64,000 bases of DNA from a phage. Shown piece by piece: positions 459 to 13,636 of this stretch. Each line of letters starts with the position of its first letter. Position 1 is the first letter of the stretch. The notes beneath the pieces are model-generated. The model worked only from the letters and a program-made list of their open reading frames with translations, did not search any database and had not been told where the DNA came from. A program made the translations under genes and the position numbers. Location of the stretch: the NCBI GenBank assembly GCA_026683435.1, contig GCA_026683435.1_4866.1; one strand, given 5' to 3'.

Positions 459-500
459 AACCGCCCTTCCGTTATTGGGAGGGCGGTCTCCGTTTTATTA
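459..500 (+). terminator. putative intrinsic terminator
   Basis: Stem ACCGCCCT/AGGGCGGT followed by T-rich CTCCGTTTTATTA, between the stop at 424 and the RBS of the next gene. Confidence 0.4.
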
Positions 501-519
501 CAGATTAGGAGTGTTTGCA

Positions 520-3500
520 ATGCCGAGAGAAGATGCGGCGCAGTTTAACGGTACGCTCAGTACCGCTACTTACCCGAACCGTTATTCGGCGGTCATTCCC
601 GTCGAAGCACCGTTCTATCGCATCGGGTTAACGTTAACCGTTACCGATAAAACAACCGGAACCAAACGCAAGTTAATAGAAGGTCTCGATTATTTCTTAG
701 GACATTACTTCCAGGAATTAGCCGAGGCTGAGAACGATGCAATATACGGCAGCATAATGCTGCTGAACGCCACAGAGGTAGAATACGAGTTACTGTCGGT
801 TGGTCGACAGTATCGCATCCCTGCTTCTGAAATCGGCAAGTATCTGGTTAAGACAGATATGAAAGACCCGCGTAACTGCGATTGGTCTGAGCTGATGAAA
901 TATCCGCCGATTATCTCGCCAATCGACCCGCCAAAAGACCTCGAAGAAGCGATTCTTCACGATGAAATCGTAAAGGCGTTGGAAGATATCCGTCTGGGTA
1001 TTTTAGAGCGCGCCCACGAGCTGGATGAGGCTTTTGCCGAAGTTACCGATTTGATTTATCAGAACGGTAAGCAGGTGTTTGATGACGAAATGTATCAACA
1101 CCACCTGATTAAAAATGCACATGGTTACACCTGCGGTGACATTGGCGCTCTCCCGGTACTCGGCAAAGCCGTAGATGCGACTAAGGCATTCGGACGTACC
1201 CTGGCAGAGCTAGTGACGTTAATGTCTACCAGCGGCATCCAACAGAAACACGTTGACATGCTTCTGGATAATACCCTGGGTGATTTACTGGGCCGTATGC
1301 GTGTTCTGAATAACGACGCGATTACGTTCCAAACAACGTCTGGTCACGTTATCAGCATGAAGGGTGAGAAGTTCATCATCACCTCGACAAAACCGCTGGT
1401 ATTAAAAGCTGACCAGGATAACAACGAACCGGGCATCGCTACGGAGTTCAGTGCTGGTCTGAACACGCTTTGGGTTCACTCGGGTAAAGCAGGTGACAAG
1501 TGGGGCGCTTATGATGCAGGTGTGCTTGCACCTGTGTATAACAGCGTGTATCTCGTTACGCCGGATATGGTTAAGATGTACTTGACCTCGGTGAAGATAC
1601 TTCCAGCAAACGCCTACTTCAAGTCCAGCGACACGTTGAAGATTTACGGCTCTGGTAAAGAAACAAACAAACTTTACATGAATGCGGAGCTGCCTGCAGC
1701 AACCACAACTGTGCAGGGTTTGTTTGCGATTACTAACCTTTCGGCGTCCGCTGCAGCATCCACAGCGATTTCCCAAAAAGCTGTTACTGACTTGAAGAAC
1801 AAACTCGACGGATATGCGGACGACACGTATACAGTCAACGGTAAAGGGTTTGTGTTAGACGAAAACGGTCAAATGCATTTAACCTTAACCGCGTCGGATT
1901 TCGGTATTGAGAAGATGAACAATACCGGGCCGCTGGAGAAACCGGTTACTAACGCGTTGCGCACCGTTCTATCAGGCAAAGCGCTTACAACGCACACCCA
2001 CACCATTGCCGATCTCGATAACGTGCCGTACGCATCCACGTCTGTTACAGGTTTGGCTAAACTGTGGGATGCTATTGACACCACAACAGATAAGATGGTT
2101 ACTGCCCGTCAGGGTTTCTTGCTCGAACAAAAGATCGGTACACTGAACGACAAGATTGCTACGTTATTACCGGCGTGGACTGTCGGCGGATCATCGTACG
2201 GCAACAATAACTTCTTGCCTATACCTGTCCAGGGGAACTACGAAGGGTATACCAAAAACCAAACCTGGCAGAAAGGTTTGGCGCGTTACGAGTCTGGTAA
2301 GGTTTACTCGCTCCGTAACGGTTCTAACGGGAACCCACCTGGTGACTGGGCTATCTATTACGCCTATGCTGATGTGTCGCCAAGCAATACGCTGGAAAAT
2401 ATGCAGCAGACGTCCGTACGTTATCGACCCGCTGGAATGTCGGCGTATCCTGGGGTGAATCTGGTTGCTATTGTGATTACCGGTACCGATGCAATGATCT
2501 GCTTAGGCAGTGACGGTGCGTACTACTTGGTCATCTTCGATGGGACGATTGACCATGCAAAACATCATCGTGTTGTTAAAGTGGTGTTGGGTGATTACAA
2601 GAACGGTAATGGTGCGGGCACAGTAACGACAGCACCGTGGGCTCCAAACGCTTCTACAGACGATTTGATTGTTTGTAATGAACGTGTCTACCTGTTGCGT
2701 ACGGTGCTTACCTCCGGTAACTATTTCGTGAGTATGCGTAGCATCGCACTCAACGAACTTAATCCGGGTGGTAGCAACACGTTTGTGGCGGATGCGTTAA
2801 CAGGCGGGATATTAACGTCGGGTGAAAACGTTTATCTGCGACAGGGACAGAAACGTGCACCTTCCGATGCGCTCCCAGCACCAGTTACACAGATCTACGC
2901 AGACGCGTTAGCGAAGTGGAACAATGCAACCAACTTTGTACATGGTCCTGAGTGTAATCACGCGATTGGTGTTGATGGGCTGAGCTTTCGTGTTGGTTTA
3001 ACGCCAACGGTTTGGTTTGCTTCTACTACAGGGCAAACTATTAACTTTAAACAATGGGTGTCAAGCTTTGTTGTCGACTGTAGCGCATTAACGGTAACGC
3101 TGGAAGGTGCTGATCGATTCCCTATTGTGGCTGATCTTACCACGGTTCGTTATAACGGTGGTACTGAGATTGGGATTCCAAGCCGGAAGTGGGGCGAAGG
3201 TCAAGCTAATAACCGAACCTTTGCAACATCGCAAGACAAGTATATCGTTTCGCAAGGACATGCAGGCGATCGCGACCTAATGCCGATTGTCACGATTACC
3301 ACGTTAGACGACGGTGTGAGTTGGTACGAGTACCTGTCGTGCGACTACAACTTCACTGCCAGAAGGTTTAGTGCGGTAACGTTAAACCAAGGTCGTGGTT
3401 CTATCTACGAGCTGGGTATGGCGTATCCACTGACTCTGGGAGCGAATTCCAGACTTATCTGGTTGTCACAGCCACGTTCCCGTTTGGCAATTGAGGTTGA

Positions 3501-5703
3501 GTTTGATCCGAACACCACTTACTCAGGTAAAGCGGGGTATGGCCCAACTAACAATCGACGTGTAGTGGATTCTACCACGTACGAGAATCTGTCGCAGATG
3601 TGCCACATTGTTACACCGGCGTCGCCTGGTACAGAGTTAAACGGCTGGTATTGCACAGGACCAGAAACATTCCCTTACCACAACGTTTCTGGCACTTTCA
3701 CGATTCATGCCGATCGGTTGACGCTGTCACAAGCCGAATGGGATAAGATGAAGCAGATGATCATCGACGGTGCACCGGCAGGCGCTGCGAATGGTTATGC
3801 TTCGGAATTTATCCTTGCCGCAAATAACGCAGGAAAGGCATTGTTCTCCGTTTGGTTCATCGGCATTGGTACGGCCACACCGCTCACGTTAGCACAAGTA
3901 GCATGTACGCGTACTGTGAACAACGTTAACGTGTTGGATATCTACTACTTTACACTGAAACCAACAATCAGCAACGGGCAGGTAACATTCCCCGCAGCGA
4001 TATTGGCTTTGTTTGACTTCTATAACAACCTCGACTATGACTTGAACTATGCTACGTTGGGAGAGATAACGGGAGGAAAAACACGCCGGCCGGGACAACC
4101 TACCATGGTGTCGGTAGATGGTACGCAGTTCGGGTTGTATCTTCCACACACGTTAACCTTGCGCCAAATTGGCGACTTGGGTGCGCTTAACTACGCTGTT
4201 GGTCTTACGTTGTCTAATGGTACCTGGACGCGTTCTTCTGCTCCACACGGCGTTGGACGTATGGCACCGTCACACACTCCAGTCAGTCCAGCTTATCTGG
4301 CACATCGCGATCAAGTGATGTTACACAACTCATCTCTCGACTACGTCTATTGTGGTGGTATCGCAACGTCGTCGAGAGATTTTGTCGCGGCTCCTAATTT
4401 TAGTGGCCCGACTGAATCGGTTGTCATTGCTGGTGTGGAAACAGCTGAAGGTTGGCTGGTATATGTGACTGAGGAAGTTGACCTGCGTTTCGGCTCGAGC
4501 ACTTATAAGCTGCCTACGTGGTATATTGACCTCAGCGCAGCATTTCCAACAAACCATCAGAACCGGACATTCTACCTGCACGCCAAGGTAGAAAATGGTA
4601 CACCGAAGTACGTAATGGACGTGATTCAACATCCAGACACTGAAACGGAACTCTATATCGGGTATGTTAAAACGGGCTCGTCGCGAGTCGTCGAGACTAA
4701 CGTCGAACATGCTAAGCGATTAGGGGCGGTGAAACAACTGTTGGAACATGCGGCGGTTGAGAATAAGCATGATGTGGAAGTGGGAAGGGACGCAGCAACG
4801 GGCAGACTGGCACCATTGCGTAAAGAAGCGATGGGTCCTTTGTCGATCGATGCTACGAAAGGCTATCTGGATAGTCAGTTGCTTTATACCGTATCTGACG
4901 CACAGCGTCGCGGTAAACCGATGGTCTCCAAACGTTTCGAAGGCTTGAAAACTTTGCCGGCGTTTACTCAGGCAAACAAGTCGGGGGCGTTTTGGAAACA
5001 TCCTACAACAATTGCGACGGTAACGGCCGATGAGAACGGTGAAGCGGCATCGTTGGGAATGGAGTGGGTAGGTATCCCTACGCCTGCTTTCTCTCCGACC
5101 TCAGGAACGATGATAGTGGTGATACAAAGTAAATTCGTCGTCCCAGGTACACCGGGAGTAGAAACGACCTTTAATGTTCACGTTGCCCCATGGGAGGCGG
5201 TGGACGGCTTTTTCTACAACATCGAGGCGGAAGGTACGGATGTTAACATTGACGAAAATCCAGAAGTGTTATTGCCGTCACCACATACCGTGCACCACAA
5301 ACAGCACTCTCTGCCAGCAGGCGTGCCGTGCACCTTTACATTTGTCGCGGCGGTAAGTTCTTCAGCGCTCGAAACAGCTAACCAGCATATTTGCTCTTGG
5401 CTTTTCACGGACGCTGGGGGTCTACCAATCACCACCGATCTTTCGGATAGTAAGATTCAAATCTTACCAGCGGCGGGAGAGACCAACGGCACACCAGTTG
5501 TTCTGAACAGTCGTAGCTACACGTTTACGAATGTGACAGGTGCAATCCCGGTTGTTACCACGGGCGCTCAGGGTTTATTCCCACCACCGATCGTGGCGTG
5601 GGATGGCGATGATCTTACGTTAACGATTGCGCACGATTGGGTGAACGAGAGAGGATGGCAACAGCCTGATATTATCCAGGTCAATCTTATGTTCCGTACC
5701 TAA
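520..5703 (+). CDS. large tail-fibre-like virion protein (about 1727 aa)
   Basis: Uninterrupted 5.2-kb ORF. AGGAG lies 8 nt upstream of ATG 520; the ORF-track start 475 is an upstream TTG inside the terminator hairpin. Gly/Thr/Asn/Ser-rich with an 'ASTSVTGLAKL' fibre-type motif. Function inferred from composition and size. Confidence 0.7.
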   Translation: MPREDAAQFNGTLSTATYPNRYSAVIPVEAPFYRIGLTLTVTDKTTGTKRKLIEGLDYFLGHYFQELAEAENDAIYGSIMLLNATEVEYELLSVGRQYRIPASEIGKYLVKTDMKDPRNCDWSELMKYPPIISPIDPPKDLEEAILHDEIVKALEDIRLGILERAHELDEAFAEVTDLIYQNGKQVFDDEMYQHHLIKNAHGYTCGDIGALPVLGKAVDATKAFGRTLAELVTLMSTSGIQQKHVDMLLDNTLGDLLGRMRVLNNDAITFQTTSGHVISMKGEKFIITSTKPLVLKADQDNNEPGIATEFSAGLNTLWVHSGKAGDKWGAYDAGVLAPVYNSVYLVTPDMVKMYLTSVKILPANAYFKSSDTLKIYGSGKETNKLYMNAELPAATTTVQGLFAITNLSASAAASTAISQKAVTDLKNKLDGYADDTYTVNGKGFVLDENGQMHLTLTASDFGIEKMNNTGPLEKPVTNALRTVLSGKALTTHTHTIADLDNVPYASTSVTGLAKLWDAIDTTTDKMVTARQGFLLEQKIGTLNDKIATLLPAWTVGGSSYGNNNFLPIPVQGNYEGYTKNQTWQKGLARYESGKVYSLRNGSNGNPPGDWAIYYAYADVSPSNTLENMQQTSVRYRPAGMSAYPGVNLVAIVITGTDAMICLGSDGAYYLVIFDGTIDHAKHHRVVKVVLGDYKNGNGAGTVTTAPWAPNASTDDLIVCNERVYLLRTVLTSGNYFVSMRSIALNELNPGGSNTFVADALTGGILTSGENVYLRQGQKRAPSDALPAPVTQIYADALAKWNNATNFVHGPECNHAIGVDGLSFRVGLTPTVWFASTTGQTINFKQWVSSFVVDCSALTVTLEGADRFPIVADLTTVRYNGGTEIGIPSRKWGEGQANNRTFATSQDKYIVSQGHAGDRDLMPIVTITTLDDGVSWYEYLSCDYNFTARRFSAVTLNQGRGSIYELGMAYPLTLGANSRLIWLSQPRSRLAIEVEFDPNTTYSGKAGYGPTNNRRVVDSTTYENLSQMCHIVTPASPGTELNGWYCTGPETFPYHNVSGTFTIHADRLTLSQAEWDKMKQMIIDGAPAGAANGYASEFILAANNAGKALFSVWFIGIGTATPLTLAQVACTRTVNNVNVLDIYYFTLKPTISNGQVTFPAAILALFDFYNNLDYDLNYATLGEITGGKTRRPGQPTMVSVDGTQFGLYLPHTLTLRQIGDLGALNYAVGLTLSNGTWTRSSAPHGVGRMAPSHTPVSPAYLAHRDQVMLHNSSLDYVYCGGIATSSRDFVAAPNFSGPTESVVIAGVETAEGWLVYVTEEVDLRFGSSTYKLPTWYIDLSAAFPTNHQNRTFYLHAKVENGTPKYVMDVIQHPDTETELYIGYVKTGSSRVVETNVEHAKRLGAVKQLLEHAAVENKHDVEVGRDAATGRLAPLRKEAMGPLSIDATKGYLDSQLLYTVSDAQRRGKPMVSKRFEGLKTLPAFTQANKSGAFWKHPTTIATVTADENGEAASLGMEWVGIPTPAFSPTSGTMIVVIQSKFVVPGTPGVETTFNVHVAPWEAVDGFFYNIEAEGTDVNIDENPEVLLPSPHTVHHKQHSLPAGVPCTFTFVAAVSSSALETANQHICSWLFTDAGGLPITTDLSDSKIQILPAAGETNGTPVVLNSRSYTFTNVTGAIPVVTTGAQGLFPPPIVAWDGDDLTLTIAHDWVNERGWQQPDIIQVNLMFRT

Positions 5704-5750
5704 CAGATAGCGCTATGGGGCAAGGAAGCCCCAATCAAAGGAGTTTGGCA

Positions 5751-6953
5751 ATGGCCGAAATCATTCATCAGTACCCGCTCGACCTTACCGGGACATTAAC
5801 GTCGAACGCCGTTACACGGCGTATTACGTTAGGTTCTGGTAAAGTTAACCGGGCTTTTGCTTTTCCTGACGGAGCTTTCTACGCGGATACCTTCCGCTTG
5901 GCAGCTGCGAATAAACCAGGTGTCTACCCGTACAAACGCGGTACAGACTACGAACTGATTTTTGCACATACTGCATATCAGAAAATGACCAAGAACCGTG
6001 AAGTGGTCATGGGTGTGGTGGTAACTAACTCGGCCATTCCTACTGATATCGAAGTCTCTGCGCAAGTCGTTGGTGGTTTTCAGTCTGCGAACGTCGAAGG
6101 CATCCGACAAGCGATTGCGTCGTTGAAAATTGAAGACCGTGTGGTGGACTTCAAGGATCTTCGAAACGTACCCGATACGTTCCCGTCCGCCCCGACGTAT
6201 AAAGACCTTGGCGATATCTACGGTTTTGAGTATATCATTACCGTACTCGCGGGGATTAAAGATGCGATTAACTCCGGCTCTGCAGTACAGCTGGAAGAAA
6301 TTAAAGGTATTCTGGATGGTCTGAAAAACGACTTCCTCGACGCCTTAAATACCCACATCAACGCCGAAGGTAACGTACACAATCTCGACATTCATCAGGT
6401 TAATGGCCTGACGGAGACGGAGATTCGTGCCCTGATTCAAAGTGTACAGACTGCCATTGACGCCACTATCAAAGATATCGGCGACTTAAGAGCAGCAGAC
6501 ACAGCGTTGGGGCAACGCATCGATGCAATTGTGGCTTCGTTAGCCGCGTGGAACGACCAGCTTAACGTGGTTGCTCAAAATTACCAGAAAATGTCGTTAG
6601 CATTAGCTAACCTTAATTCTCTGGTGTTGCAATTACAGAAGATGGTTAACGATCTTCAGTCTGCACTGAATAAAACAAATCAGCGCGTCACGGATCTTGA
6701 GAATCAGGGCAAAGACTTCCAACAGCAAATTGATAACCTGCAAGGACAAATCAACAGTCTTAAAACTCAGGTTGTAAATAACACCAACGCAATTTCGCAG
6801 GCAAACCAGAATCTGGCGAACCATGCGGCTGCGGATAACCCACACCCGAATTACCTCCATAAACAGTATGGCGGTGTTGTGCAGGCTGCTGTTCACGTCA
6901 ACAACAGCCTCACCTCGCGCGACGATGTTCAAGCTGAAGCGGGTACTAAGTAA
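5751..6953 (+). CDS. fibre-associated protein with long C-terminal coiled coil (fibritin- or tail-fibre-like)
   Basis: AAGGAG lies 9 nt upstream of ATG 5751; the ORF-track ATG 5715 has no RBS. C-terminal half is heptad-like and Q/N/L-rich (LQLQKMVNDLQSALNKTNQRVTDLENQ...). Confidence 0.65.
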   Translation: MAEIIHQYPLDLTGTLTSNAVTRRITLGSGKVNRAFAFPDGAFYADTFRLAAANKPGVYPYKRGTDYELIFAHTAYQKMTKNREVVMGVVVTNSAIPTDIEVSAQVVGGFQSANVEGIRQAIASLKIEDRVVDFKDLRNVPDTFPSAPTYKDLGDIYGFEYIITVLAGIKDAINSGSAVQLEEIKGILDGLKNDFLDALNTHINAEGNVHNLDIHQVNGLTETEIRALIQSVQTAIDATIKDIGDLRAADTALGQRIDAIVASLAAWNDQLNVVAQNYQKMSLALANLNSLVLQLQKMVNDLQSALNKTNQRVTDLENQGKDFQQQIDNLQGQINSLKTQVVNNTNAISQANQNLANHAAADNPHPNYLHKQYGGVVQAAVHVNNSLTSRDDVQAEAGTK

Positions 6954-6965
6954 CTTGTTTACGAG

Positions 6966-7007
6966 CCGGACTATGTTTATGGACATAGTCCGCTCGTTCT
7001 ACTTTTT
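6966..7007 (+). terminator. hairpin plus T-run (terminator or attenuator) upstream of the Cys-repeat peptide genes
   Basis: 10-bp perfect stem CGGACTATGT/ACATAGTCCG with a 6-nt loop, followed by TTCTACTTTTTAA. Confidence 0.4.
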
Positions 7008-7018
7008 AAGGAAGCGTA

Positions 7019-7411
7019 ATGGCGATATCTATTAAAGACGTCAGAAACCGCGTCCAGATAGTCGAAGCTAACATGGCGACAGGCCCCCGTATCGACGCGC
7101 AAGTGGCCTCTAAAGCCCATAATGCGGCAGACCGATTTGGGGGTTGGACGAAAGCACAGCTAGATTGCGGCGGGACATGTTCTTGGACGTGCTCTAACGG
7201 TTGCTCGCATGGCTGTTCGAGCTGTTCAGGAAGCTGTTCTGCTTCTTGTATCGGTAGCTGTTCTTCGACGTGTGGCGGTAACTGTTCTGGTTGCTCTGGT
7301 TGTTCTGGTGGTTGCAGTAGTAGCTGTACCGGTAACTGCTCAGGTGGTTGCGGGGGGGCTTGTTCTTCCAATTGTTCCGGAGCCTGCTCCGGTGGCTGTT
7401 CAGGTCGCTAA
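7019..7411 (+). CDS. Cys/Ser/Gly-repeat small protein 1 (130 aa; putative RiPP-like precursor)
   Basis: AAGGAAG RBS. About 50-aa Cys-free N-terminal region conserved with the next two ORFs, then about 80 aa with about 21 Cys mostly as C-S-x-x units. Confidence 0.6.
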   Translation: MAISIKDVRNRVQIVEANMATGPRIDAQVASKAHNAADRFGGWTKAQLDCGGTCSWTCSNGCSHGCSSCSGSCSASCIGSCSSTCGGNCSGCSGCSGGCSSSCTGNCSGGCGGACSSNCSGACSGGCSGR

Positions 7412-7421
7412 GGGGGATTAA

Positions 7422-7826
7422 ATGGCAATTGGATTAAAAGAACTGAATAACCGATTAAACACGATCGATGCAAACGCTTTAAAGAACACCACGAATGTGC
7501 AAAACTACATTCGCAATAAAGCTACGAATAACGCCGACTTGTTCGCAGGTCAAGGTCGTTCGCACTACGACTGTGGTGGTACGTGTTCTTTTAGCTGCTC
7601 AAGTTGCTCTGGCGGCTGCACAGGGTCTGCGACAGGTGGTTGTGGGTCGACTTGTTCCGCAAACTGTGTATCAGGCTGTAGCAGCAGCTGCACGGGCTGT
7701 AGCTCTTCGTGCTCTGGTGGTTGTAGCGGCACGTGCACAGGCAGCTGTTCTGGGGGTTGTGGTAAATCCTGCTCCGCAAACTGCTCAGGTGCGTGCTCTG
7801 GTGGTTGTTCAGGTCCTAACTCCTAA
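7422..7826 (+). CDS. Cys/Ser/Gly-repeat small protein 2 (134 aa; putative RiPP-like precursor)
   Basis: AGGGGG RBS. Paralogous to 7019-7411 with the same leader-like N-terminus (MAI..K.(V/L)(R/N)NR(V/L), ..NAAD(R/L)F.G, ...(H)YDCGGTCS) and about 20 Cys in the core. Confidence 0.6.
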   Translation: MAIGLKELNNRLNTIDANALKNTTNVQNYIRNKATNNADLFAGQGRSHYDCGGTCSFSCSSCSGGCTGSATGGCGSTCSANCVSGCSSSCTGCSSSCSGGCSGTCTGSCSGGCGKSCSANCSGACSGGCSGPNS

Positions 7827-7841
7827 CTGACGGAGGCTTAT

Positions 7842-8048
7842 GTGATCAGTCTCAAGACTATTCGAAACCGTCTCGTTACGGTAGAAGGTTACATTACAAC
7901 CGCACAGGCAAACAACTATATTGCTAACCAGGGCACCGTGTCGACCACAAATAACCTGGCTGGCTTACCGCTTTCTCACTATAACTGTAATGGTGGGTGT
8001 AGCTGGTCCTGCAGCGGAAGCTGTAGCCGTGGAGCGGGGAATCGATAA
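7842..8048 (+). CDS. Cys/Ser/Gly-repeat small protein 3 (68 aa; short-core paralogue)
   Basis: GGAGG RBS with a GTG start. Conserved leader-like N-terminus (MISLKTIRNRL...LSHYNCNGGCSWSCSGSCS) and a short core with 4 Cys. Confidence 0.55.
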   Translation: MISLKTIRNRLVTVEGYITTAQANNYIANQGTVSTTNNLAGLPLSHYNCNGGCSWSCSGSCSRGAGNR

Positions 8049-8070
8049 CAGAAAACGTTCGGAGTATTAA

Positions 8071-8958
8071 ATGAAAAACGATTTGCATCTTGCGTATAAA
8101 ACCACATTCAACCACCCGCTGCATCTATCTTCCCCAGATTCAGTGCGTGCACACCTTGCTGACAAAGTCAGACTGATTGCACAGATTCCTGGTGAGTGGC
8201 CAAAGGTTCGTGGTCGCTTCTTGACCGACAAGAAGAACTACACCGTAGAAAATACGTTTAAGATCCGTGATATGGTTGCAGAGGCCATCGTTATCTTTAA
8301 CGGCGATGGTAACTCTCGTGGCGTGTTAGTCGACGGTAAGTATTTCTTCAGTGAAGGGATTTTGAACAACAGCGTCGATTTAGAACTGATGTTTACACCG
8401 TTTGACGAACTTGAAGCAAAACCGATGGCGCGCCGTTGGTGGAGTCCGGACTATCTGGGCTCGTTCCCTTACTACTTTGTACTGGTACCTGCCGATACGG
8501 AAACGTATTTCGACACCGAACCATACATCGATATCGAGGGGTATAAAGAACTCGGCATCACCCGTTTAGCGGACATGATGGCGTATAGCTATAAGTTCGT
8601 GTGGGATAAAAAGCGTTCTGTCTGGTATGCGCTGACTGACGATTTTGAAATCACCAAACGTATTCGTAAGCCGTGGATGCAACACCTGGTTCAAACCCGA
8701 TATGGGGATTACCCGGCGACAGAAGCGGACTTGAGTAAGCTGGTAAGCTTCCTCTTAACAAAGGTGGATTTAACGAAAGAAGAAGCAGAAGCTGTTTCTG
8801 AGATTCGTGGTCGTTCGGTAACGTTGGCCGATTTGAAACGTCTGAACGAAAGACACGCCGACCTGAACAAAATTTTAGCTGCCTATCACGACCCGATGTT
8901 ACTGGTGCCTGGCGCTAATGTAGACGAAGATCCTTTATTCGCCATTGATTATATTTAA
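8071..8958 (+). CDS. hypothetical protein (295 aa) in the rSAM cassette
   Basis: GGAG RBS. Co-oriented and tightly packed between the peptide genes and the rSAM genes. No motif recognised. Confidence 0.65.
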   Translation: MKNDLHLAYKTTFNHPLHLSSPDSVRAHLADKVRLIAQIPGEWPKVRGRFLTDKKNYTVENTFKIRDMVAEAIVIFNGDGNSRGVLVDGKYFFSEGILNNSVDLELMFTPFDELEAKPMARRWWSPDYLGSFPYYFVLVPADTETYFDTEPYIDIEGYKELGITRLADMMAYSYKFVWDKKRSVWYALTDDFEITKRIRKPWMQHLVQTRYGDYPATEADLSKLVSFLLTKVDLTKEEAEAVSEIRGRSVTLADLKRLNERHADLNKILAAYHDPMLLVPGANVDEDPLFAIDYI

Positions 8959-8980
8959 AAATATACTGGAGCAACCTGCA

Positions 8981-9895
8981 ATGACAGATCAAGTAGAATC
9001 CAGGATCTCGTCTGAACTGTACGACAAACCGTCAATTCTGTCGGTTGTCGCAACTTCTAAGTGTAACTTAGACTGTAGCTTCTGTGGAGGGGCTTATTAC
9101 ATGGATAGAGAAGATACTTCTCGTGAGTTTCAACGTGAAGAGATTCTCTCGATTTTAGAGAAGAATCCGGATATCGGTGAGATTCATTGGACGGGCGGTG
9201 AGCCGCTGTTAGCGCAGCGTAAGATTGAAGACTTCGTGAACGAGTTGAAGGAGTCTCATCCTAACCTCCGTCATCACATGTACACCAACGGTTTAAAGAT
9301 GCGTAAATCACATCTGCCGTTGCTGAAACAGTTCGACCTTATCTTTGTGTCCATTGACGGCTACAAGAAGTCGGAACGTCCGTTTATGAACTTTGTAAAC
9401 GGTGGTAATCACGAAGCGCTGGAAGTGCTGTACGAGCTGGACAACTATTACACCTGGGGTGTGATGACGCGTGACCAGTTAGGCGATAAACGCTGGTACG
9501 AAGATTTCATCGAGCTGCACCGAGCAATCTATCATTACCGTCCAGGTGGTGTGTCGTTGTTGTTTGATGCGATGATGCCGAAACCGTTATCGCCAGACCA
9601 CGTCATGAACTTCATGTACGGGTATTGGAAAATACTCGACAATATCGAACGCCTTAACATGCAGAACGATTCTGAATGTGGGCTTGCGATCAGTAAAATG
9701 TTCGATACCGAGTGCAACACGTGCAGTGAAGTGCTGTGGCTTAACGCCGACGGTACGCAGGAGCAAATTCAGAACGCCCCAGAGATATTGGAAGTCGGCT
9801 GTAATCGCCTGGCGCGTTCTATCGGCGTTGATGCGTATAACTACATCAACCGTGTAATTTCTGCTAAGCGTAAACGGGCGGCGAACAATGAGTAA
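8981..9895 (+). CDS. radical SAM enzyme (about 304 aa)
   Basis: CNLDCSFC (CX3CX2C) near the N-terminus, GGEPLL glycine motif, and C-terminal Cys cluster (C-x11-C-x2-C). ATG 8981 has a GGAG RBS; the ORF-track start 8945 is a TTG overlapping the previous gene. Confidence 0.8.
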   Translation: MTDQVESRISSELYDKPSILSVVATSKCNLDCSFCGGAYYMDREDTSREFQREEILSILEKNPDIGEIHWTGGEPLLAQRKIEDFVNELKESHPNLRHHMYTNGLKMRKSHLPLLKQFDLIFVSIDGYKKSERPFMNFVNGGNHEALEVLYELDNYYTWGVMTRDQLGDKRWYEDFIELHRAIYHYRPGGVSLLFDAMMPKPLSPDHVMNFMYGYWKILDNIERLNMQNDSECGLAISKMFDTECNTCSEVLWLNADGTQEQIQNAPEILEVGCNRLARSIGVDAYNYINRVISAKRKRAANNE

Positions 9896-11216
9896 TAGCG
9901 AACAGCAAATCCAGTACACACCACGCACGTATCAGGTTGTGACTAACCTGTCATGTAACCTGGACTGCGAATACTGCTACGAGCGTAAATATCCGCGTAA
10001 CAACAAAGTAGCAGACGTGATTGATTTTATCCACGCTTGTTTCGAGCGTGATAAAGATATCCCGAACGTTGAAGTCATCATCGATATCATCGGTGGTGAG
10101 CCGTTCATGCAGCCTAAACTTCTTTTGGCGGCCTTTGAAACCGCAGAGAAGTTATGCGCAGAACACAATCGCCCGTATATGTTCAGTATCTCCACGAACG
10201 GTACGCTTCTGGACCGTCCGCTGAACAAAGAAATTATCGAGCGCTGGAAAGACAAACTGTCTATTGGGGTCTCCATCGATGGTTTACCTGAAGTCCATGA
10301 CAAATATCGTATCTTTACCACGACGCGTGAAGGGTCGTACGAAGCTGCGGTACGCGGTTACAATTATCTGAAGAGTGTTGGCATCGCTGAGCTGGGCGTA
10401 AAGGCGACGTTTACGATCGATACATTGCCGCACTATGCCGCCAGCATGAAATCGTTAATTGACATGTCCGGCGGTGGTACCATCTCTGGTAACGTAACGT
10501 ACGAAGATATCCTGCCGCGCCATATGGCGTTGGATATCGCGAACCAGATGATGGACGTGATGGACTACTGGATTGAGAAGGGTCTGCACACCAACCCGCG
10601 TAACACGATTACACACATCATCCCGGATGGCCTGAACTTTATGGCAACTTGGGACCCGGATTGGCGTGACAAACTCTTACATGACGACTCTGTTCGTCTC
10701 GACCCAGAACGCCTGAAACCGTACTGCGGTACGTTGACGCACATGACCTGTCTCGGCTTTGATCGCAAGATTTACGGTTGTAACCGTTTCATGTCCACGG
10801 TAACTTCCCGCTCTGCTGTAGCAGAACTGGTCGGTCGTGAGTTTGTGAGCCTGGACGGTGGTAAGCTGTTAGAAGAGATTCAAACGCAGTACACCAACTA
10901 CCCAGAAACCTGTTTAGGGTGTCCGATGAAACACAGCTGCGGTAGCTGCGCAGCAGCATCGTACGAAAACGGTGAAGGTACACTGGAAGACCGTAAAGCG
11001 TATCATGCCGAGCGTCGTCAGTGTGGTTGGACTACTGCGAAGCTGATGGCGGCGGAATATTGGTATCAGAAAACTGGTACGACCCGCGCATCAGATTTGC
11101 ATGATAAATCCATGTGCTATTGTTCACGTTGTGTACGCCAACGTGCTGAAGCAGAAAAATTACAAAACGGAGCCCAGAATGAAGTCAATACTGATTCACA
11201 ATTTTACGAAGCGTAA
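9888..11216 (+). CDS. radical SAM enzyme with SPASM-type C-terminal domain (anSME-like RiPP maturase fold)
   Basis: CNLDCEYC (CX3CX2C), GGEPFM, STNGTLL and SIDG motifs, and C-terminal CLGCPMKHSCGSC plus further Cys. Start overlaps the stop of the previous rSAM gene (ATGAGTAA). Confidence 0.8.
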   Translation: MSNSEQQIQYTPRTYQVVTNLSCNLDCEYCYERKYPRNNKVADVIDFIHACFERDKDIPNVEVIIDIIGGEPFMQPKLLLAAFETAEKLCAEHNRPYMFSISTNGTLLDRPLNKEIIERWKDKLSIGVSIDGLPEVHDKYRIFTTTREGSYEAAVRGYNYLKSVGIAELGVKATFTIDTLPHYAASMKSLIDMSGGGTISGNVTYEDILPRHMALDIANQMMDVMDYWIEKGLHTNPRNTITHIIPDGLNFMATWDPDWRDKLLHDDSVRLDPERLKPYCGTLTHMTCLGFDRKIYGCNRFMSTVTSRSAVAELVGREFVSLDGGKLLEEIQTQYTNYPETCLGCPMKHSCGSCAAASYENGEGTLEDRKAYHAERRQCGWTTAKLMAAEYWYQKTGTTRASDLHDKSMCYCSRCVRQRAEAEKLQNGAQNEVNTDSQFYEA

Positions 11217-11745
11217 ACTGCACTTGGTCGATCGCTTCCTGCGCAAAAGCAAGCTGTACAATGTGCACGCAATTGTGGCAGGGGAAGACTTCACTGATGA
11301 AATCCAAAGCCTGTTGATTAAATACGGGCTGAACGTGATGATCCCGGTCTACTGCGTTGAGAAAGGACACGAGTCTGTCGCGGAAATCGAAAAGCGCAAT
11401 CCTGGCTTTGAGAAGCGACTGCTCGCATACCCACGCCACAAAATCGAACTGCTACGTCATTCCATCGATGAAGCCAGTCCTGAAAGTTTAGTGGCTTTGG
11501 GCTTGTCTTTCCCGCGGATGCGTATTCGTAACTTACGCTCCAATAATCCGGTCGACGCGTATTACACAGAGCGTCAAATCTTCGAAGAACACCTGCTCCC
11601 GCAGTTGGAAGAAGAAGAGCAACACAACATTTCTGTGTTGTGGGCCGGTAACCTCGATCAGGACTTCCAGATGCTGGACTTCGGTTTGTTGTTAGAACTT
11701 GGCCTGATTGAGGAGGACGAATGTCTGTTACTGACAAAAGCTTAA
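11179..11745 (+). CDS. hypothetical protein (about 188 aa), cassette accessory candidate
   Basis: ACGGAG upstream of ATG 11179. The ORF-track start 11101 lies deep inside the rSAM gene. Confidence 0.55.
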   Translation: MKSILIHNFTKRKLHLVDRFLRKSKLYNVHAIVAGEDFTDEIQSLLIKYGLNVMIPVYCVEKGHESVAEIEKRNPGFEKRLLAYPRHKIELLRHSIDEASPESLVALGLSFPRMRIRNLRSNNPVDAYYTERQIFEEHLLPQLEEEEQHNISVLWAGNLDQDFQMLDFGLLLELGLIEEDECLLLTKA

Positions 11746-12392
11746 CGAACGAAGAGATCCGCGCCCGTTATTTCCAGCGTGATTTGCCGATTGATCGTCA
11801 CGGTAATTTCATGGAACGAATCGGTGCGCAGGATCAGGGTCGTACCGGATTTTGTGCATTACTCCATTACCATCTCATCGAAGGGATGTCTGATAAAGAA
11901 GCCCTGGCACGTATGAAGCTGTATGAGATGTCGGAGATTGAAGCTAACTTCACATTGAAACGCACGAAAGAGTTTATTGCTAATGTGCTGGAGATTGACC
12001 TCGACGAAATTCGCGGGAATCTGAAATCCACCGCACGTTACATTTACGAAGACGTGCAGAAGATGCTGTTGGAACTTGACCACCGCTACGAAGATGAGCG
12101 TCATGGTTATATCGAGTTTGAAGGTAGCCACTTTCAAGCCGATGAATCGTCGCGCGCCATCCTCGGTCAATACATTCAGGCAGATACCGCACCAGAATAC
12201 TGGCTCGATACGCTGAATACTAAGCACAGTCCGTTTACAGTAGACCAATGTAAAGCGTTGTTGGGCGCTATTGTTGCACGCGACCAGGTGTTGCACTCAG
12301 CAATGGCAGATAACAAACGCCAAATCCGTGAGTTAGCTGAAAAGCGCGATTACACCGGTTTAAAAACATTGTCCGAATCACTCGGCATGTAA
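11721..12392 (+). CDS. hypothetical protein (223 aa), last gene of the rightward block
   Basis: GAGGAGGA RBS. Overlaps the previous gene by 25 nt and is followed by a strong terminator. Confidence 0.65.
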   Translation: MSVTDKSLTNEEIRARYFQRDLPIDRHGNFMERIGAQDQGRTGFCALLHYHLIEGMSDKEALARMKLYEMSEIEANFTLKRTKEFIANVLEIDLDEIRGNLKSTARYIYEDVQKMLLELDHRYEDERHGYIEFEGSHFQADESSRAILGQYIQADTAPEYWLDTLNTKHSPFTVDQCKALLGAIVARDQVLHSAMADNKRQIRELAEKRDYTGLKTLSESLGM

Positions 12393-12406: not shown

Positions 12407-12450
12407 GGCCCTACCTCCCCGAAGGGAGGTAGGTACCTTTTATTTATTTC
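12407..12450. terminator. bidirectional intrinsic terminator at the strand-polarity switch
   Basis: Stem CTACCTCCC/GGGAGGTAG with CGAA loop, flanked by T-runs on both strands, between convergent genes. Confidence 0.65.
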
Positions 12451-12472: not shown

Positions 12473-13021
12473 TTACACGACAGTGTGACCTTCGCCGCCG
12501 AATCCGCCCAGTTCACCGTTGGTGGTGCTCAGGTCAGTTTTAACGATTGGCTGCGTTACAGTATAAACTGCAAGGCTGGCAGGTTGGTATTTAATGTGGC
12601 CTTCTTTCACCTTAACAGTGATGACTTTCTCACCACTGCTGCCGTCCTCGCGTGTAATGGTGAGTTCAGACAACGCAAACGCATCTTCCGTTTCACCGTC
12701 GCCAAATAGTTCTGCGTTGACAAAAGCAAGCACTTCTTCATCGGTATCCCATTCTGCCTGGTCAGCGGTAACTGCTTTCGCACCGATGATGTTCGATGAA
12801 TCGAGGCGGGTATAATGCAGCTCTTTCTCGCCAGTAAAGTTAGCGGATTCCGCGGTGGCAGTGATGGTGAGTTTGGAGTTGCGAGTGTCTCCAGAATCTG
12901 CTGGTGAATAGTCAGCAACAGCGCCGAATGTAACGTCAGCAGAAGTTAACGGACTAGACAGTCCGCTGTTTGCAGCATTAAACAGCGCGACGAGTTGGTC
13001 TTTTGCAGAGATGACTGCCAT
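12473..13021 (-). CDS. small member of the fibre-associated paralogue family (182 aa)
   Basis: AAGGAAA RBS. N-terminal module with 'LHYTRLDSSNI' (family Y-x-R-L motif) and C-terminal 'NGELGGF' shared with the 470-aa paralogues. Confidence 0.65.
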   Translation of the reverse strand: MAVISAKDQLVALFNAANSGLSSPLTSADVTFGAVADYSPADSGDTRNSKLTITATAESANFTGEKELHYTRLDSSNIIGAKAVTADQAEWDTDEEVLAFVNAELFGDGETEDAFALSELTITREDGSSGEKVITVKVKEGHIKYQPASLAVYTVTQPIVKTDLSTTNGELGGFGGEGHTVV

Positions 13022-13144: not shown

Positions 13145-13636
13145 ATGAAACGTCTATTTATCGTATTCGCGATTATAAACCTGTTGGCCGGTTGTGTTCA
13201 GTCGCCAAGCAACATAGGACAATTTAGCGCCACACCAGTAAAGAATCACGACTTGGTGATTTATACATGCACAGGGACGCAGGAGAAGTTTGTAGACTAC
13301 CGTCCGGTACTGGACAACCTACAAATGATGCCGCGGTCAGTAACAGTAATGGATGTGGGTGCAAACTGGGTAGCAGCGTGGGACGGTGGCAAACTAGAGT
13401 CACCGATGATGTTTAAAGATACAATTGGCAAAATCGACGGGAATGTTAACACCACCACAGGTGAGCGTTATTACCGTATTAATAAAACCGTAAACGATAG
13501 CCCCACTTATTCTTTTTCGGATGTGAACCCGTATACCGGCGAAGGTAAAGGGATGACATTCTTTCGCTGCAGCAGCGGGTTTATCGGTGAAGTTCCTACT
13601 CCGATTACGATTGTTCCGTTAGAAGAAAATAAATAG
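13145..13636 (+). CDS. putative lipoprotein (163 aa)
   Basis: N-terminal signal peptide with lipobox LLAGC. Followed by a strong hairpin terminator. Confidence 0.65.
   Translation: MKRLFIVFAIINLLAGCVQSPSNIGQFSATPVKNHDLVIYTCTGTQEKFVDYRPVLDNLQMMPRSVTVMDVGANWVAAWDGGKLESPMMFKDTIGKIDGNVNTTTGERYYRINKTVNDSPTYSFSDVNPYTGEGKGMTFFRCSSGFIGEVPTPITIVPLEENK

What the first reader, a model, noticed from the sequence alone, without database searches (positions are those of the whole stretch)
7019..12392. Phage-encoded Cys-repeat peptides with two radical SAM enzymes: a candidate RiPP-like maturation cassette
Seen: three tandem co-oriented small ORFs share a Cys-free leader-like N-terminus of about 50 aa and differ in the length of a C-terminal core built almost only of Cys, Ser, Gly and Thr. 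They are followed in the same operon by a 295-aa unknown protein, a radical SAM enzyme (CNLDCSFC, GGEPLL), a second radical SAM enzyme with a SPASM-like C-terminal Cys cluster (CNLDCEYC, GGEPFM, CLGCPMKHSCGSC), and two more unknown proteins, ending at a strong terminator. Established: rSAM-SPASM enzymes adjacent to Cys-rich precursors are the hallmark of sactipeptide and ranthipeptide (SCIFF-type) biosynthesis, where Cys sulfur is crosslinked to carbon atoms of other residues; QhpD is a related case. Inference: the phage makes one or more heavily thioether-crosslinked peptides, possibly virion-associated (the cassette sits directly after fibre genes) or a diffusible or anti-host factor. I know of no described phage RiPP cassette of this architecture.
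Basis: partly seen in the sequence, partly recalled or inferred. Interest (0 to 1): 0.92.

Follow-up and report, generated by a model that had tools for sequence, protein, structure and literature searches.

The report
Radical-SAM-matured cysteine-repeat phage fibre proteins
A giant Salmonella phage (SPN3US type) encodes three small, usually mis-annotated proteins with a cysteine at every fourth residue, next to two radical SAM enzymes and a helper protein. In related phages the same cysteine repeat forms the far end of true tail fibres, so this looks like an undescribed enzyme-driven maturation of a virus structural protein rather than a secreted peptide antibiotic.

Summary
The window is an SPN3US-like jumbo phage. 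It carries three co-oriented genes, here called pepA, pepB and pepC (130, 134 and 68 aa). Each has a Cys-free N-terminal part of about 50 residues followed by a Cys/Ser/Gly/Thr "CXXX" repeat. They are followed by a 295-aa protein (gp165-like), a radical SAM enzyme (rSAM-A), a radical SAM/SPASM enzyme (rSAM-B), two proteins found only in this phage clade, and a terminator.

The Cys frame is the coding frame. In the pepA core, 41 of 43 codons that differ between this window and an Erwinia phage are synonymous. SPN3US GenBank annotates the wrong frame, and gene callers mostly miss these ORFs.

rSAM-B is closest to NCBIfam's CXXX-repeat maturase (TIGR04115), PapB and CteB, but scores below every curated cut-off. 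In IMG/VR, 76 of 80 loci encoding a relative of rSAM-B carry a co-oriented CXXX ORF next to it.

In several of these cassettes the CXXX domain is the C-terminus of a real tail fibre. The gp165-like gene then sits where a fibre chaperone gene usually lies. No protease or exporter is present.

My reading is a tail-fibre-tip maturation module, probably forming thioether cross-links. The chemistry and the virion location are inferred, not shown. It is a new variant of a catalogued but uncharacterised system.

The parts
475..5703 (+). Context: gp168-like giant tail/baseplate-periphery protein (1742 aa).
   Evidence: ORF; SPN3US_0168. SPN3US gp168 is a tail protein similar to phiKZ gp131 (PMC5105663) and is in the virion proteome.
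5715..6953 (+). Context: gp167-like virion structural protein (412 aa) with weak tail-fibre-type coiled-coil matches.
   Evidence: phrog_2163 at 7e-109 plus weak tail-fibre PHROGs. SPN3US gp167 was detected in virions.
6961..6997 (+). Hairpin followed by a U-run between gp167 and pepA. It may act as a terminator or attenuator that sets the cassette apart.
   Evidence: dG -24.1 kcal/mol, z -4.5, and 0 of 200 shuffles fold as well.
7019..7411 (+). pepA: 130 aa, with a 49-aa Cys-free N-terminal part and an 81-aa CXXX-repeat domain (21 Cys). It is the predicted substrate of the rSAM enzymes and a fibre-tip-like protein.
   Evidence: frame conserved; core dN/dS 0.029. phrog_6085 at 5e-40. TIGR04114 at 18.0 bits against a cut-off of 20. 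SD AAGGAAG.
7422..7826 (+). pepB: 134 aa paralogue, with a 50-aa N-terminal part and an 84-aa CXXX domain (20 Cys).
   Evidence: phrog_6085 at 3e-41. It aligns to residues 243-399 of the 401-aa fibre-like protein of L028 at E 1e-9. The SPN3US GenBank gp166 is a wrong-frame ORF over this gene.
7842..8048 (+). pepC: 68 aa paralogue with a GTG start. It keeps the junction motif C-N-G-G-C-S-W-S-C plus one or two repeat units only.
   Evidence: orthologues in four genera; the distal Cys are lost in CR5 and Kwan. phrog_6085 at 3e-25. dN/dS 0.058.
8071..8958 (+). gp165-like accessory protein (295 aa). Its fold is unassigned and it is not a virion protein. I propose it acts as the substrate-presenting or fibre-assembly factor of the module.
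8945..9895 (+). rSAM-A: radical SAM enzyme (likely start ATG 8981, giving 304 aa) with CX3CX2C, GGEPLL and a conserved C-terminal C-x-x-C ... G-C.
   Evidence: PF04055 at 58.7 bits. Conserved Cys columns. GGAG lies 8 nt before ATG 8981. Full-length orthologue in L007 at 26% identity, 2e-14. Fused to an rSAM-B-like half in L027.
9888..11216 (+). rSAM-B: radical SAM/SPASM-type enzyme (442 aa). It is the predicted Cys-repeat maturase.
   Evidence: PF04055. TIGR04115 at 125.6 bits (3e-36) and PapB NF047865 at 113.6 bits. The family profile matches CteB 5WGG at 7e-37. Conserved Cys are C23/27/30 plus C280, C288, C298, C342, C345, C351, C354 and C379.
11179..11745 (+). gp162-like protein (188 aa from ATG 11179). 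It is specific to this phage clade, of unknown function, and not part of the universal module.
   Evidence: phrog_7988 aligns from residue 27 of the long ORF. Found only in SPN3US-clade loci.
11721..12392 (+). gp161-like DUF4376 protein (223 aa). It is specific to this phage clade and may be a fibre-associated assembly factor.
   Evidence: PF14301 at 36.9 bits against a cut-off of 25. Weak phrog_2837 'tail protein' match. Only in SPN3US-clade loci. Not in the virion list.
12410..12433 (.). Bidirectional intrinsic-terminator-like hairpin that closes the cassette, lying between it and the convergent gp160 gene.
   Evidence: 10 pairs, 7 of them GC, with a T-run on both strands.

Best explanation
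The cassette is a maturation module for Cys-repeat tail-fibre-tip proteins, not a pathway for a released peptide.

pepA, pepB and pepC are small fibre-tip-type proteins. Each has a Cys-free N-terminal part with a predicted helix. This is followed by a junction, N-A-x-D-x-[LF]-x-G-x5-[YL]-x-C-x-G-x-C-S-[WF]-[ST]-C, and then a domain with Cys at every fourth residue.

Three non-virion proteins act on that domain in the cytoplasm:
- rSAM-B, a radical SAM/SPASM enzyme of the CXXX-repeat-maturase / PapB / CteB lineage.
- rSAM-A, a second radical SAM enzyme with one probable auxiliary cluster.
- The gp165-like protein, which probably presents or chaperones the substrate, because rSAM-B has no RRE domain.

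The most likely chemistry is repeated radical-mediated formation of Cys-S-to-carbon thioether bridges along the repeat. This would give a covalently laddered, reduction- and protease-resistant rod or tip. The product would stay joined to its N-terminal part and be built into the tail or baseplate fibre apparatus encoded just upstream (gp167, gp168).

Shown here: the genes are real and constrained; substrate and enzyme co-occur; the family relationships hold; CXXX domains are fused to true tail fibres; and the two rSAMs are fused in one locus.

Inferred: the thioether chemistry, the role of gp165, and the virion location in this phage.
For: Genes are real: conserved frame and Cys columns in four genera, 41 of 43 differing core codons synonymous, dN/dS 0.03-0.06.

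The enzyme lineage is thioether-forming:
- The top NCBIfam matches are TIGR04115 (3e-36) and PapB (1e-32, nearly full length).
- The best solved structure for the family profile is CteB 5WGG at 7e-37, against anSME at 1e-16.
- Eight conserved SPASM-region Cys, seven invariant and C288 in at least 90% of sequences.

Substrate and enzyme co-occur:
- 514 viral stretches encode relatives of rSAM-B.
- 76 of the best 80 loci carry a co-oriented CXXX ORF within a few kb.
- There are 95 hits near the enzyme gene against 3 far from it, in equal amounts of DNA.
- Distant members pass the TIGR04115 cut-off at 428-497 bits.

Fibre context in related cassettes:
- L024 runs baseplate V/J/I, then a 384-aa tail fibre (PF12571 at 139 bits; PHROG tail fibre at 1e-55) ending in the CXXX repeat, then a gp165-like protein, two rSAMs and the tail sheath.
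- L091 has a P2-H-like fibre with a CXXX end.
- L007 has a J-like tail-tip gene, two small ORFs, a 302-aa fibre with the same ...Y-x-C-x-x-C-S-W-T-C junction, a gp165-like protein and two rSAMs.
- L045 runs Dit, a Tal-like protein, a structural protein, a CXXX protein and then the rSAM.
- pepB aligns to the last ~160 residues of the L028 fibre-like protein at 1e-9.

The two rSAMs work together: they are fused in one 686-aa ORF in L027.

gp161-gp165 are absent from the 86-protein SPN3US virion proteome, while gp167-171 are present.

No protease, exporter or signal peptide is found in the cassette.
Against: - No chemistry is known even for the reference family TIGR04115.
- rSAM-B is below every curated cut-off (125.6 bits against 350).
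- The repeat has no conserved acceptor residue such as the Asp of PapA.
- pepA-C have never been seen in virions. This is uninformative, because they were not in the search database, but it means there is no positive evidence.
- A profile built from the Cys-free part alone finds no homologue outside the SPN3US clade or elsewhere in the window. Fibre homology therefore rests on the junction motif and on full-length alignments.
- The core is extremely conserved between Salmonella and Erwinia phages, which is unusual for a receptor-binding tip.
- One module (L026) is not next to recognisable tail genes, and its candidate substrate has only 3 Cys.
- Some bacterial CXXX proteins carry signal peptides (P0177), so secreted products exist in the wider family.
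- AF2 gives no fold for pepA (pLDDT 42).
Confidence: 0.52

Rival explanations
1. Same substrates and enzymes, different chemistry. The rSAM pair converts Cys or Ser of the repeat to something other than thioether bridges. Options are formylglycine (anSME-type oxidation), D-residues (epimerisation), or C-terminal or backbone modifications. rSAM-A and rSAM-B would each install a different mark.
For: anSME is the second-best solved relative of the family profile (1e-16), and one homologue is named AslB-like by JGI. Each repeat unit offers both Cys and Ser or Thr at position +1. There is no conserved acceptor residue. Two different rSAM enzymes are always present in this subfamily.
Against: The scores to the thioether-forming lineage are much stronger: TIGR04115 and PapB at 114-126 bits against anSME at 57 bits, and CteB at 7e-37 against anSME at 1e-16.
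Confidence: 0.2
2. Classical RiPP. The 50-residue N-terminus is a leader. It is removed and the cross-linked Cys-rich cores are released at lysis as diffusible, anti-host or anti-competitor peptides.
For: Three tandem precursors with similar N-termini and variable cores next to an rSAM/SPASM enzyme is the usual layout of a RiPP gene cluster. Signal-peptide-bearing bacterial CXXX proteins exist (P0177). In L090 the CXXX ORF has only a 14-residue N-terminus.
Against: The cassette has no peptidase, exporter or immunity gene. rSAM-B has no RRE domain. The N-terminal part is under purifying selection over its whole length (dN/dS 0.078). The identical junction and repeat sit at the C-terminus of 271-568-aa fibre proteins. 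The cassette lies inside the late structural region.
Confidence: 0.12
3. The Cys-repeat proteins are not rSAM substrates. They would be unmodified metal-binding (metallothionein-like) or Fe-S-related proteins, or disulfide-bonded structural proteins. The rSAM enzymes would act on another target, such as gp167, gp168 or a small molecule.
For: Cys-x-x-x-Cys arrays can chelate metals. No modification has been demonstrated. AF2 predicts a disordered core.
Against: Adjacency of CXXX ORFs and this rSAM lineage is nearly universal across very different phages (76 of 80 loci), whereas gp167, gp162 and gp161 are restricted to the SPN3US clade. NCBIfam curators defined the pair as target and maturase. 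Disulfides cannot form in the cytoplasm where virions assemble.
Confidence: 0.1

Closest known systems
NCBIfam CXXX-repeat system: TIGR04115 (radical SAM peptide maturase, CXXX-repeat target family) with TIGR04114/TIGR04117 and Pfam PF27846 (Cys-rich CXXX-repeat target)
   Same: It pairs an rSAM/SPASM enzyme with an adjacent protein carrying Cys at every fourth residue. It is the best NCBIfam match of rSAM-B (3e-36). The peptides reach 17-18 bits on TIGR04114. True members found in viral contigs also sit in tail-tip modules.
   Different: rSAM-B scores 125.6 bits against the 350-bit cut-off, and the peptides score 17-18 bits against the 20-bit cut-off. The window's subfamily adds a second rSAM and a gp165-like protein that TIGR04115-type loci lack. 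The reference system is a computational definition. I found no experimental chemistry for it and no stated link to phage.
PapB/PapA (freyrasin ranthipeptide; NF047865)
   Same: Second-best family match, aligned over nearly the whole model (positions 12-319 of 330, 1e-32). From my own knowledge, it has no N-terminal RRE-type extension and makes several regularly spaced thioether bridges from Cys at four-residue spacing.
   Different: The score is 113.6 bits against a cut-off of 340. From my own knowledge, PapA uses C-x3-D motifs with Asp as acceptor and is a short leader-containing peptide. The phage cores contain no Asp or Glu, and the CXXX domain is fused to fibre proteins in relatives.
CteB/SCIFF (TIGR03974; PDB 5WGG)
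   Same: Closest solved structure to the rSAM-B family profile (7e-37), covering the rSAM core and the SPASM domain. It shares the CxxCx5Cx2-3C-A-A motif.
   Different: The alignment starts at CteB residue 103, so the RRE domain is missing in the phage enzyme. The TIGR03974 score is 53.9 bits against 425. The substrate is not a 45-residue, six-Cys SCIFF peptide.
QhpD/QhpC (quinohemoprotein amine dehydrogenase maturation; TIGR03906)
   Same: The concept is the same: an rSAM/SPASM enzyme cross-links Cys within a protein subunit that stays part of a larger assembly rather than being released. There is a weak family match (3.8e-15).
   Different: The score is 55.5 bits against 453. From my own knowledge, QhpC has few Cys-to-Asp/Glu links and sits in a periplasmic enzyme context.
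Phage tail-fibre assembly chaperones (P2 gpG / Tfa, T4 gp38 / gp57A, intramolecular chaperone domains)
   Same: The genes sit in the same position, immediately downstream of the fibre gene in L024, L091 and L007. The products are non-virion and are needed only for fibre maturation. The functional analogy is an inference.
   Different: There is no sequence or fold similarity. Known chaperones fold fibres without covalent chemistry, whereas here two radical enzymes are involved.

Membership tests
TIGR04115 CXXX-repeat radical SAM maturase | Whole-protein score at or above the curated cut-off (350 bits) | tested here: not met
   125.6 bits, E 3e-36, in two stretches. Distant viral relatives score 428-497 bits and pass.
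TIGR04115 CXXX-repeat radical SAM maturase | An adjacent gene encodes a protein with Cys-x-x-x repeats | tested here: met
   pepA and pepB lie 2-3 kb upstream on the same strand. The pairing holds in 76 of 80 related viral loci.
TIGR04114 / PF27846 CXXX-repeat target | Repeat model score at or above the cut-off (20 bits) or a PF27846 hit | tested here: inconclusive
   pepA scores 18.0, pepB 17.1 and pepC 13.7 bits, just under the cut-off. PF27846 is not in the local Pfam copy: known PF27846 proteins also gave no hit. By direct count, 17 of 20 and 16 of 19 Cys-Cys spacings equal 4.
Radical SAM superfamily (PF04055) | CX3CX2C cluster motif and a Pfam score above the gathering threshold | tested here: met
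   rSAM-A scores 58.7 bits and rSAM-B 55.6 bits against a threshold of 29.5. The motifs are CNLDCSFC and CNLDCEYC.
SPASM domain (PF13186 / TIGR04085) | C-terminal 7-8 Cys motif, CX9-15GX4C ... CX2CX5CX3C ... C, binding two auxiliary clusters | tested here: inconclusive
   No PF13186 hit at E 0.1 or better. However, eight Cys are conserved across 22 family members: C280, C288, C298, C342, C345, C351, C354 and C379. The spacing is CX2CX5CX2C. The region aligns to the SPASM parts of PapB, TIGR04115 and CteB. rSAM-A has only C-x-x-C ... C.
PapB-type ranthipeptide system (NF047865) | Score at or above 340 bits, and C-x3-D/E acceptor motifs in the substrate | tested here: not met
   113.6 bits. The pepA and pepB cores contain no Asp or Glu.
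SCIFF/CteB ranthipeptide system (TIGR03974) | Score at or above 425 bits, an N-terminal RRE domain, and a six-Cys-in-45 precursor | tested here: not met
   53.9 bits. The profile aligns only to CteB residues 103-430. The precursors are 68-134 aa with 4-21 Cys.
Anaerobic sulfatase-maturating enzyme (TIGR03942) | Score at or above 349 bits, and a sulfatase substrate nearby | tested here: not met
   57.3 bits. None of the cassette or flanking proteins scanned matches a sulfatase family.
Canonical RiPP gene cluster (sactipeptide or ranthipeptide type) | Leader peptide recognised by an RRE, with a leader peptidase and/or exporter encoded in the cluster | tested here: not met
   No peptidase, ABC-transporter or PqqD/RRE family hit for any of the eight proteins in Pfam, NCBIfam or PHROGs. 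The gp165 model has no RRE-like structural match.
Phage tail fibre / fibre-tip protein | Homology to known fibre proteins | tested here: inconclusive
   pepB aligns to the C-terminal ~160 aa of the L028 fibre-like protein at 1e-9. The junction motif is shared with fibres in L007, L009 and L028. A profile of the Cys-free part alone finds nothing outside the clade, and pepA-C have no Pfam fibre domain.
Phage tail fibre / fibre-tip protein | Presence in purified virions | not testable with these tools
   The published SPN3US proteome lists gp167-171 but used an annotation lacking these ORFs. The MS data need to be re-searched.

The most novel reading that the evidence does not exclude
Tailed phages of many lineages (at least 514 IMG/VR stretches) use dedicated radical SAM enzymes to install a long ladder of covalent Cys-derived cross-links in the C-terminal tip of tail fibres. 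This would be a new class of virion protein maturation and a new kind of fibre-tip or receptor-binding architecture. SPN3US would be the only cultured, genetically tractable clade in which the tip is split off as three small proteins, possibly forming a heterotrimer.
Probability: 0.4. Interest if true: 0.9.

Novelty: new variant of a known kind. Interest (0 to 1): 0.8.

Why it matters
If the reading is right, radical SAM 'RiPP' chemistry is used on virion structural proteins. As far as I could find, no such post-translational modification is described for phage fibres.

It would give a function and a biological setting (phage tail tips) to a catalogued but uncharacterised enzyme-substrate family. 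It would also define a covalently reinforced fibre module of possible use in engineering stable binders.

It would explain why two radical SAM genes are conserved in all SPN3US-like jumbo phages. SPN3US already has amber-mutant genetics and virion proteomics, so the question is directly testable.

There is also a practical annotation point. These ORFs are systematically missed or called in the wrong frame or strand, so proteomic and comparative studies have been blind to them.

Tried and rejected
- AF2 on pepA with a six-sequence alignment gave pLDDT 42. Only an N-terminal helix was predicted and the core had no fold.
- A leader-only HMM found no other window protein and no homologue outside the clade. 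I therefore dropped the idea of a docking motif shared with gp167 or gp168.
- Pfam cannot test PF27846 because the local copy lacks it.
- Literature searches found nothing relevant. I tried SPN3US with radical SAM; CXXX repeat; TIGR04115; tail fiber with radical SAM and thioether; SPASM with tail fiber; ranthipeptide with bacteriophage; and Cys-rich with radical SAM and phage tail.
- The infected-cell proteome paper I tried by a DOI recalled from memory (10.1128/JVI.01833-18) is not held.
- I rejected three alternatives. The wrong-frame or opposite-strand ORFs annotated in GenBank are excluded by the codon-position pattern. An anSME/sulfatase reading is excluded by the scores and context. A tandem-repeat expansion artefact is excluded because only one weak 24-nt repeat is present and lengths are conserved across genera.
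- I did not run the metagenome or genome collection scans, because the viral contigs gave enough.

Full report
IDENTITY OF THE WINDOW. The 5.4-kb region is 98-99% identical to Salmonella phage SPN3US and its close relatives (genus Seoulvirus, 240-kb jumbo myoviruses). It is about 80% identical to Salmonella phages STsAS/SPAsTU and to Erwinia phage pEa_SNUABM_29. In SPN3US coordinates it covers genes 166-161, directly after gp168 and gp167. gp168 is a tail protein similar to phiKZ gp131 (PMC5105663). gp167 is a virion structural protein detected in virions (PMC5694885 supplement).

OBSERVATION. I call the three small genes pepA, pepB and pepC:
- pepA, 7019-7411: 130 aa, 21 Cys, first Cys at residue 50.
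- pepB, 7422-7826: 134 aa, 20 Cys, first Cys at residue 51.
- pepC, 7842-8048: 68 aa, GTG start, 4 Cys, first Cys at residue 49.

Their cores are almost only Ser, Gly, Cys and Thr, and the Cys-to-Cys spacing is 4 in 17 of 20 and 16 of 19 intervals. The genes that follow are:
- a 295-aa protein (8071-8958);
- rSAM-A (8945-9895, probable start ATG 8981 with GGAG 8 nt upstream);
- rSAM-B (9888-11216);
- two further ORFs (11179-11745 and 11721-12392);
- a strong bidirectional hairpin terminator at 12410-12433.

Both rSAM proteins pass Pfam PF04055.

ARE THE CYS-RICH ORFS REAL GENES? This mattered, because the repeat is open in several frames and public annotations disagree. SPN3US GenBank calls gp166 in the +2 frame over pepB. 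Huxley, Kwan, CR5 and pEa_SNUABM_29 call opposite-strand ORFs.

The Cys frame is the coding frame. The same start, stop, length and Cys columns are kept in Seoulvirus, Machinavirus, Derbicusvirus and Wellingtonvirus. In the pepA core, window versus pEa_SNUABM_29, substitutions fall 5/3/40 on codon positions 1/2/3, and 41 of 43 differing codons are synonymous.

dN/dS is 0.047 for pepA (core 0.029, N-terminal part 0.078) and 0.058 for pepC. The neighbouring enzyme genes give 0.04-0.06, at dS of about 1.6. Each gene has a Shine-Dalgarno sequence.

The exact pepA sequence is absent from a 5.8-billion-cluster protein collection, where the best hit is 49% identical, and several entries are frame-shifted calls. 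Gene finders therefore routinely miss these genes.

THE ENZYMES. The best NCBIfam matches of rSAM-B are:
- TIGR04115, 'radical SAM peptide maturase, CXXX-repeat target family': 125.6 bits, 3e-36, cut-off 350.
- The PapB ranthipeptide maturase family: 113.6 bits, aligned over model positions 12-319 of 330.

All other peptide maturases and anSME score far lower. The peptides themselves score 17-18 bits on the 18-residue model TIGR04114, 'Cys-rich repeat-containing protein', just under its cut-off of 20.

In a 22-sequence family alignment the CX3CX2C motif is conserved. Seven C-terminal Cys are invariant (C280, C298, C342, C345, C351, C354, C379) and an eighth, C288, is kept in at least 90% of sequences. 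This is a SPASM-like pattern.

The family profile's closest solved structure is CteB (5WGG), the thioether-forming SCIFF maturase, at 7e-37. The alignment covers only chain residues 103-430, so the N-terminal RRE domain is absent here. anSME follows at 1e-16.

rSAM-A is a shorter, divergent radical SAM protein with GGEPLL and a conserved C-terminal C-x-x-C ... G-C. I infer that this binds one auxiliary cluster.

rSAM-B orthologues occur in all SPN3US-related genera, with the same gene order. Beyond that clade, a pattern scan of IMG/VR found 514 viral stretches encoding a relative of rSAM-B.

Among the best 80 loci, 76 have a co-oriented CXXX-repeat ORF within -4.5/+3.5 kb. There are 95 regex hits near the enzyme gene against 3 elsewhere, in equal amounts of DNA. 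Three of the four exceptions are contigs cut just upstream of the enzyme gene. The fourth (L026) has a 97-aa ORF ending GCESCAMGCHGPQ in the substrate position.

The more distant loci carry enzymes that pass the TIGR04115 cut-off at 428-497 bits. The window therefore belongs to a sister subfamily of a catalogued system.

That subfamily is defined by a four-gene core: the CXXX protein, a gp165-like protein, rSAM-A and rSAM-B. It is found in the SPN3US clade and in L007, L024-L028 and L090-L092. In L027 the two rSAMs are fused into one 686-aa ORF, which argues that they act together. gp162, gp161 and gp167 are restricted to the SPN3US clade.

WHAT THE SUBSTRATES ARE. Here the evidence departs from the RiPP picture. 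In the related cassettes the CXXX domain is usually the C-terminal end of a large structural protein:
- L024 (a P2-like contig) has baseplate V, J and I genes. Next comes a 384-aa protein that is an unambiguous tail fibre and ends in the CXXX repeat (Pfam PF12571 at 139 bits; tail-fibre PHROGs down to 1e-55). After it come a gp165-like protein, rSAM-B, rSAM-A and the tail sheath.
- L091 has a 271-aa fibre that passes PF12571 and has a CXXX end, followed by a gp165-like protein and both rSAMs.
- L007 (a Deferribacter abyssi prophage) has a lambda-J-like tip protein followed by two small ORFs. Next is a 302-aa fibre with H-x-H-x-x-R-Y-Y-T-E repeats that ends '...ATNADQLGGQAGSYYRCSDCSWTCSSSC...' plus the repeat. 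A gp165-like protein (24% identity, 2e-9) and both rSAMs follow.
- L009 (a 213-kb contig) has a T4-gp13-like neck protein, then a 568-aa protein with a precomputed PF27846 hit and the junction 'NAVTLGGQPPDFYTCGGSCSWSC'.
- L045 (a siphovirus-type contig) runs Dit, a Tal-like protein and a 792-aa structural protein. These are followed by a 371-aa CXXX protein and a TIGR04115 enzyme.

The window's peptides carry the same junction: N-A-x-D-x-[LF]-x-G-x5-[YL]-x-C-x-G-x-C-S-[WF]-[ST]-C. pepB aligns over its whole length to the last ~160 residues of the 401-aa fibre-like protein of L028, at 1e-9. That L028 protein also matches the peptides' PHROG family, phrog_6085.

In L090 an uncalled 79-aa CXXX ORF starts two bases after the stop of a T7-tail-fibre-like gene. 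This shows that 'split' versions like SPN3US's occur elsewhere.

The cassette has no peptidase, exporter, immunity gene or signal peptide. In the published 86-protein SPN3US virion proteome, gp167-171 are present and gp161-166 are absent. This fits gp161-165 being assembly or maturation factors. It says nothing about pepA-C, which were not in the search database.

MOST LIKELY MECHANISM. pepA, pepB and pepC are small fibre-tip-type proteins. Their Cys-every-fourth-residue domain is modified in the cytoplasm by rSAM-B together with rSAM-A.

The gp165-like protein probably presents or chaperones the substrate. It sits where fibre chaperone genes sit, and rSAM-B has no RRE of its own.

By similarity to CteB and PapB, the likeliest reaction is repeated Cys-S-to-carbon thioether formation. 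This would give a covalently laddered tip that stays attached to its N-terminal part and is mounted on the fibre apparatus encoded just upstream.

The steps that are shown are: the genes are real and constrained; substrate and enzyme are linked; the lineage assignment holds; CXXX domains are fused to real fibres; and the two rSAMs are coupled. The steps that are inferred are the chemistry, gp165's role, and the virion location in SPN3US.

COUNTER-EVIDENCE AND LIMITS.
- No chemistry is known even for TIGR04115 proper.
- rSAM-B fails all curated cut-offs.
- The cores lack an obvious acceptor residue; they contain no Asp or Glu.
- A profile of the Cys-free part alone finds no homologue outside the clade.
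- The core is unusually conserved between Salmonella and Erwinia phages for a receptor-binding tip.
- L026's module is not in a tail context.
- Some bacterial CXXX proteins have signal peptides (P0177).
- AF2 does not fold pepA.
- The searchable literature excludes most subscription journals, so an existing description cannot be ruled out. My eight relevant searches found none.

COMPARISON AND NOVELTY. In mechanism the cassette most resembles the thioether-forming rSAM/SPASM maturases CteB, PapB and QhpD. It belongs to the same broad system as NCBIfam's CXXX-repeat target and maturase pair. It is not a member of any of those families by their curated thresholds.

It differs in three ways: a second radical SAM enzyme; an accessory protein of unassigned fold; and substrates that are fibre-type structural proteins, here split off as three small conserved paralogues.

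I rate it a new variant of a known (catalogued, uncharacterised) kind. The tail-fibre association of the whole CXXX-repeat system appears to be an unreported and testable insight. SPN3US-like phages are the only cultured phages in the INPHARED collection that carry it.

VERDICT. The enzyme-substrate cassette is real; a released RiPP is unlikely; a virion fibre component is likely. Interest 0.8.

Noticed in passing
window 7495-7830 (+2 frame); L001 9477-9812; L003 3256-3993; L002 6099-6818: Public annotations place wrong-frame ORFs (SPN3US gp166) or opposite-strand ORFs (Huxley gp176/177, pEa_SNUABM_29 _00267/268, CR5_157, Kwan_183) over the Cys-repeat genes. The exact pepA protein is absent from a 5.8-billion-cluster protein collection.
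   Followed up: yes
window 8945-9100; L001 11082: SPN3US GenBank gp164 starts downstream of the CNLDCSFC cluster motif, so the deposited protein lacks the radical SAM motif. ATG 8981, with GGAG 8 nt upstream, is the likely start.
   Followed up: partly
window 6961-6997: A stable hairpin (dG -24 kcal/mol, z -4.5) followed by a U-run lies directly after the gp167 stop and before the pepA ribosome-binding site. It may be a terminator or attenuator separating the cassette from the fibre genes.
   Followed up: partly
window 9888-11216, C-terminal ~40 residues (protein motif CYCSRC): rSAM-B of the jumbo-phage clade has a C-terminal extension with a conserved C-x-C-x-x-C motif. Most of the non-jumbo homologues lack it. 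It may be an extra metal or cluster site.
   Followed up: no
L027 7137-9197: A single 686-aa ORF fuses an rSAM-A-like half (residues 15-132) to an rSAM-B-like half (residues 289-663; 30% identity, 7e-54).
   Followed up: yes
L090 5017-5256: An uncalled 79-aa CXXX ORF begins 2 nt after the stop of a 607-aa T7-tail-fibre-like gene, in another frame. It is either a separate cap protein or a candidate for frameshift fusion.
   Followed up: partly
L026 6883-7176: In a 279-kb contig the substrate position holds a 97-aa ORF with only three C-terminal Cys (GCESCAMGCHGPQ). The module is flanked by a 909-aa ORF that I did not characterise rather than by recognisable tail genes.
   Followed up: no
window 7842-8048 versus L004 3960-4169 and L005 3963-4172: pepC keeps the junction C-x-G-x-C-S-W but loses the distal Cys in CR5 and Kwan (CSWTSSGG, CSWSSSGG). 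This suggests the junction itself is a functional unit, and pepC may be a minimal or regulatory substrate.
   Followed up: partly
L009 3128-3798: This 213-kb phage contig has an additional rSAM-like gene split into 56-aa and 156-aa pieces between the CXXX fibre gene and the accessory gene. It may be a decaying third rSAM.
   Followed up: no
window 12473-13021 (-) and 13145-13636 (+): The convergent neighbour is the homologue of SPN3US gp160, reported at more than 300 copies per capsid (PMC5694885). The next gene encodes a 163-aa protein with a lipobox-like N-terminus (LLAGC).
   Followed up: no
window 7232-7289: The only tandem DNA repeat in the whole 64-kb window is a weak 24-nt repeat of 2.4 copies inside pepA. 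The Cys repeat is therefore not maintained by recent DNA-level duplication.
   Followed up: yes
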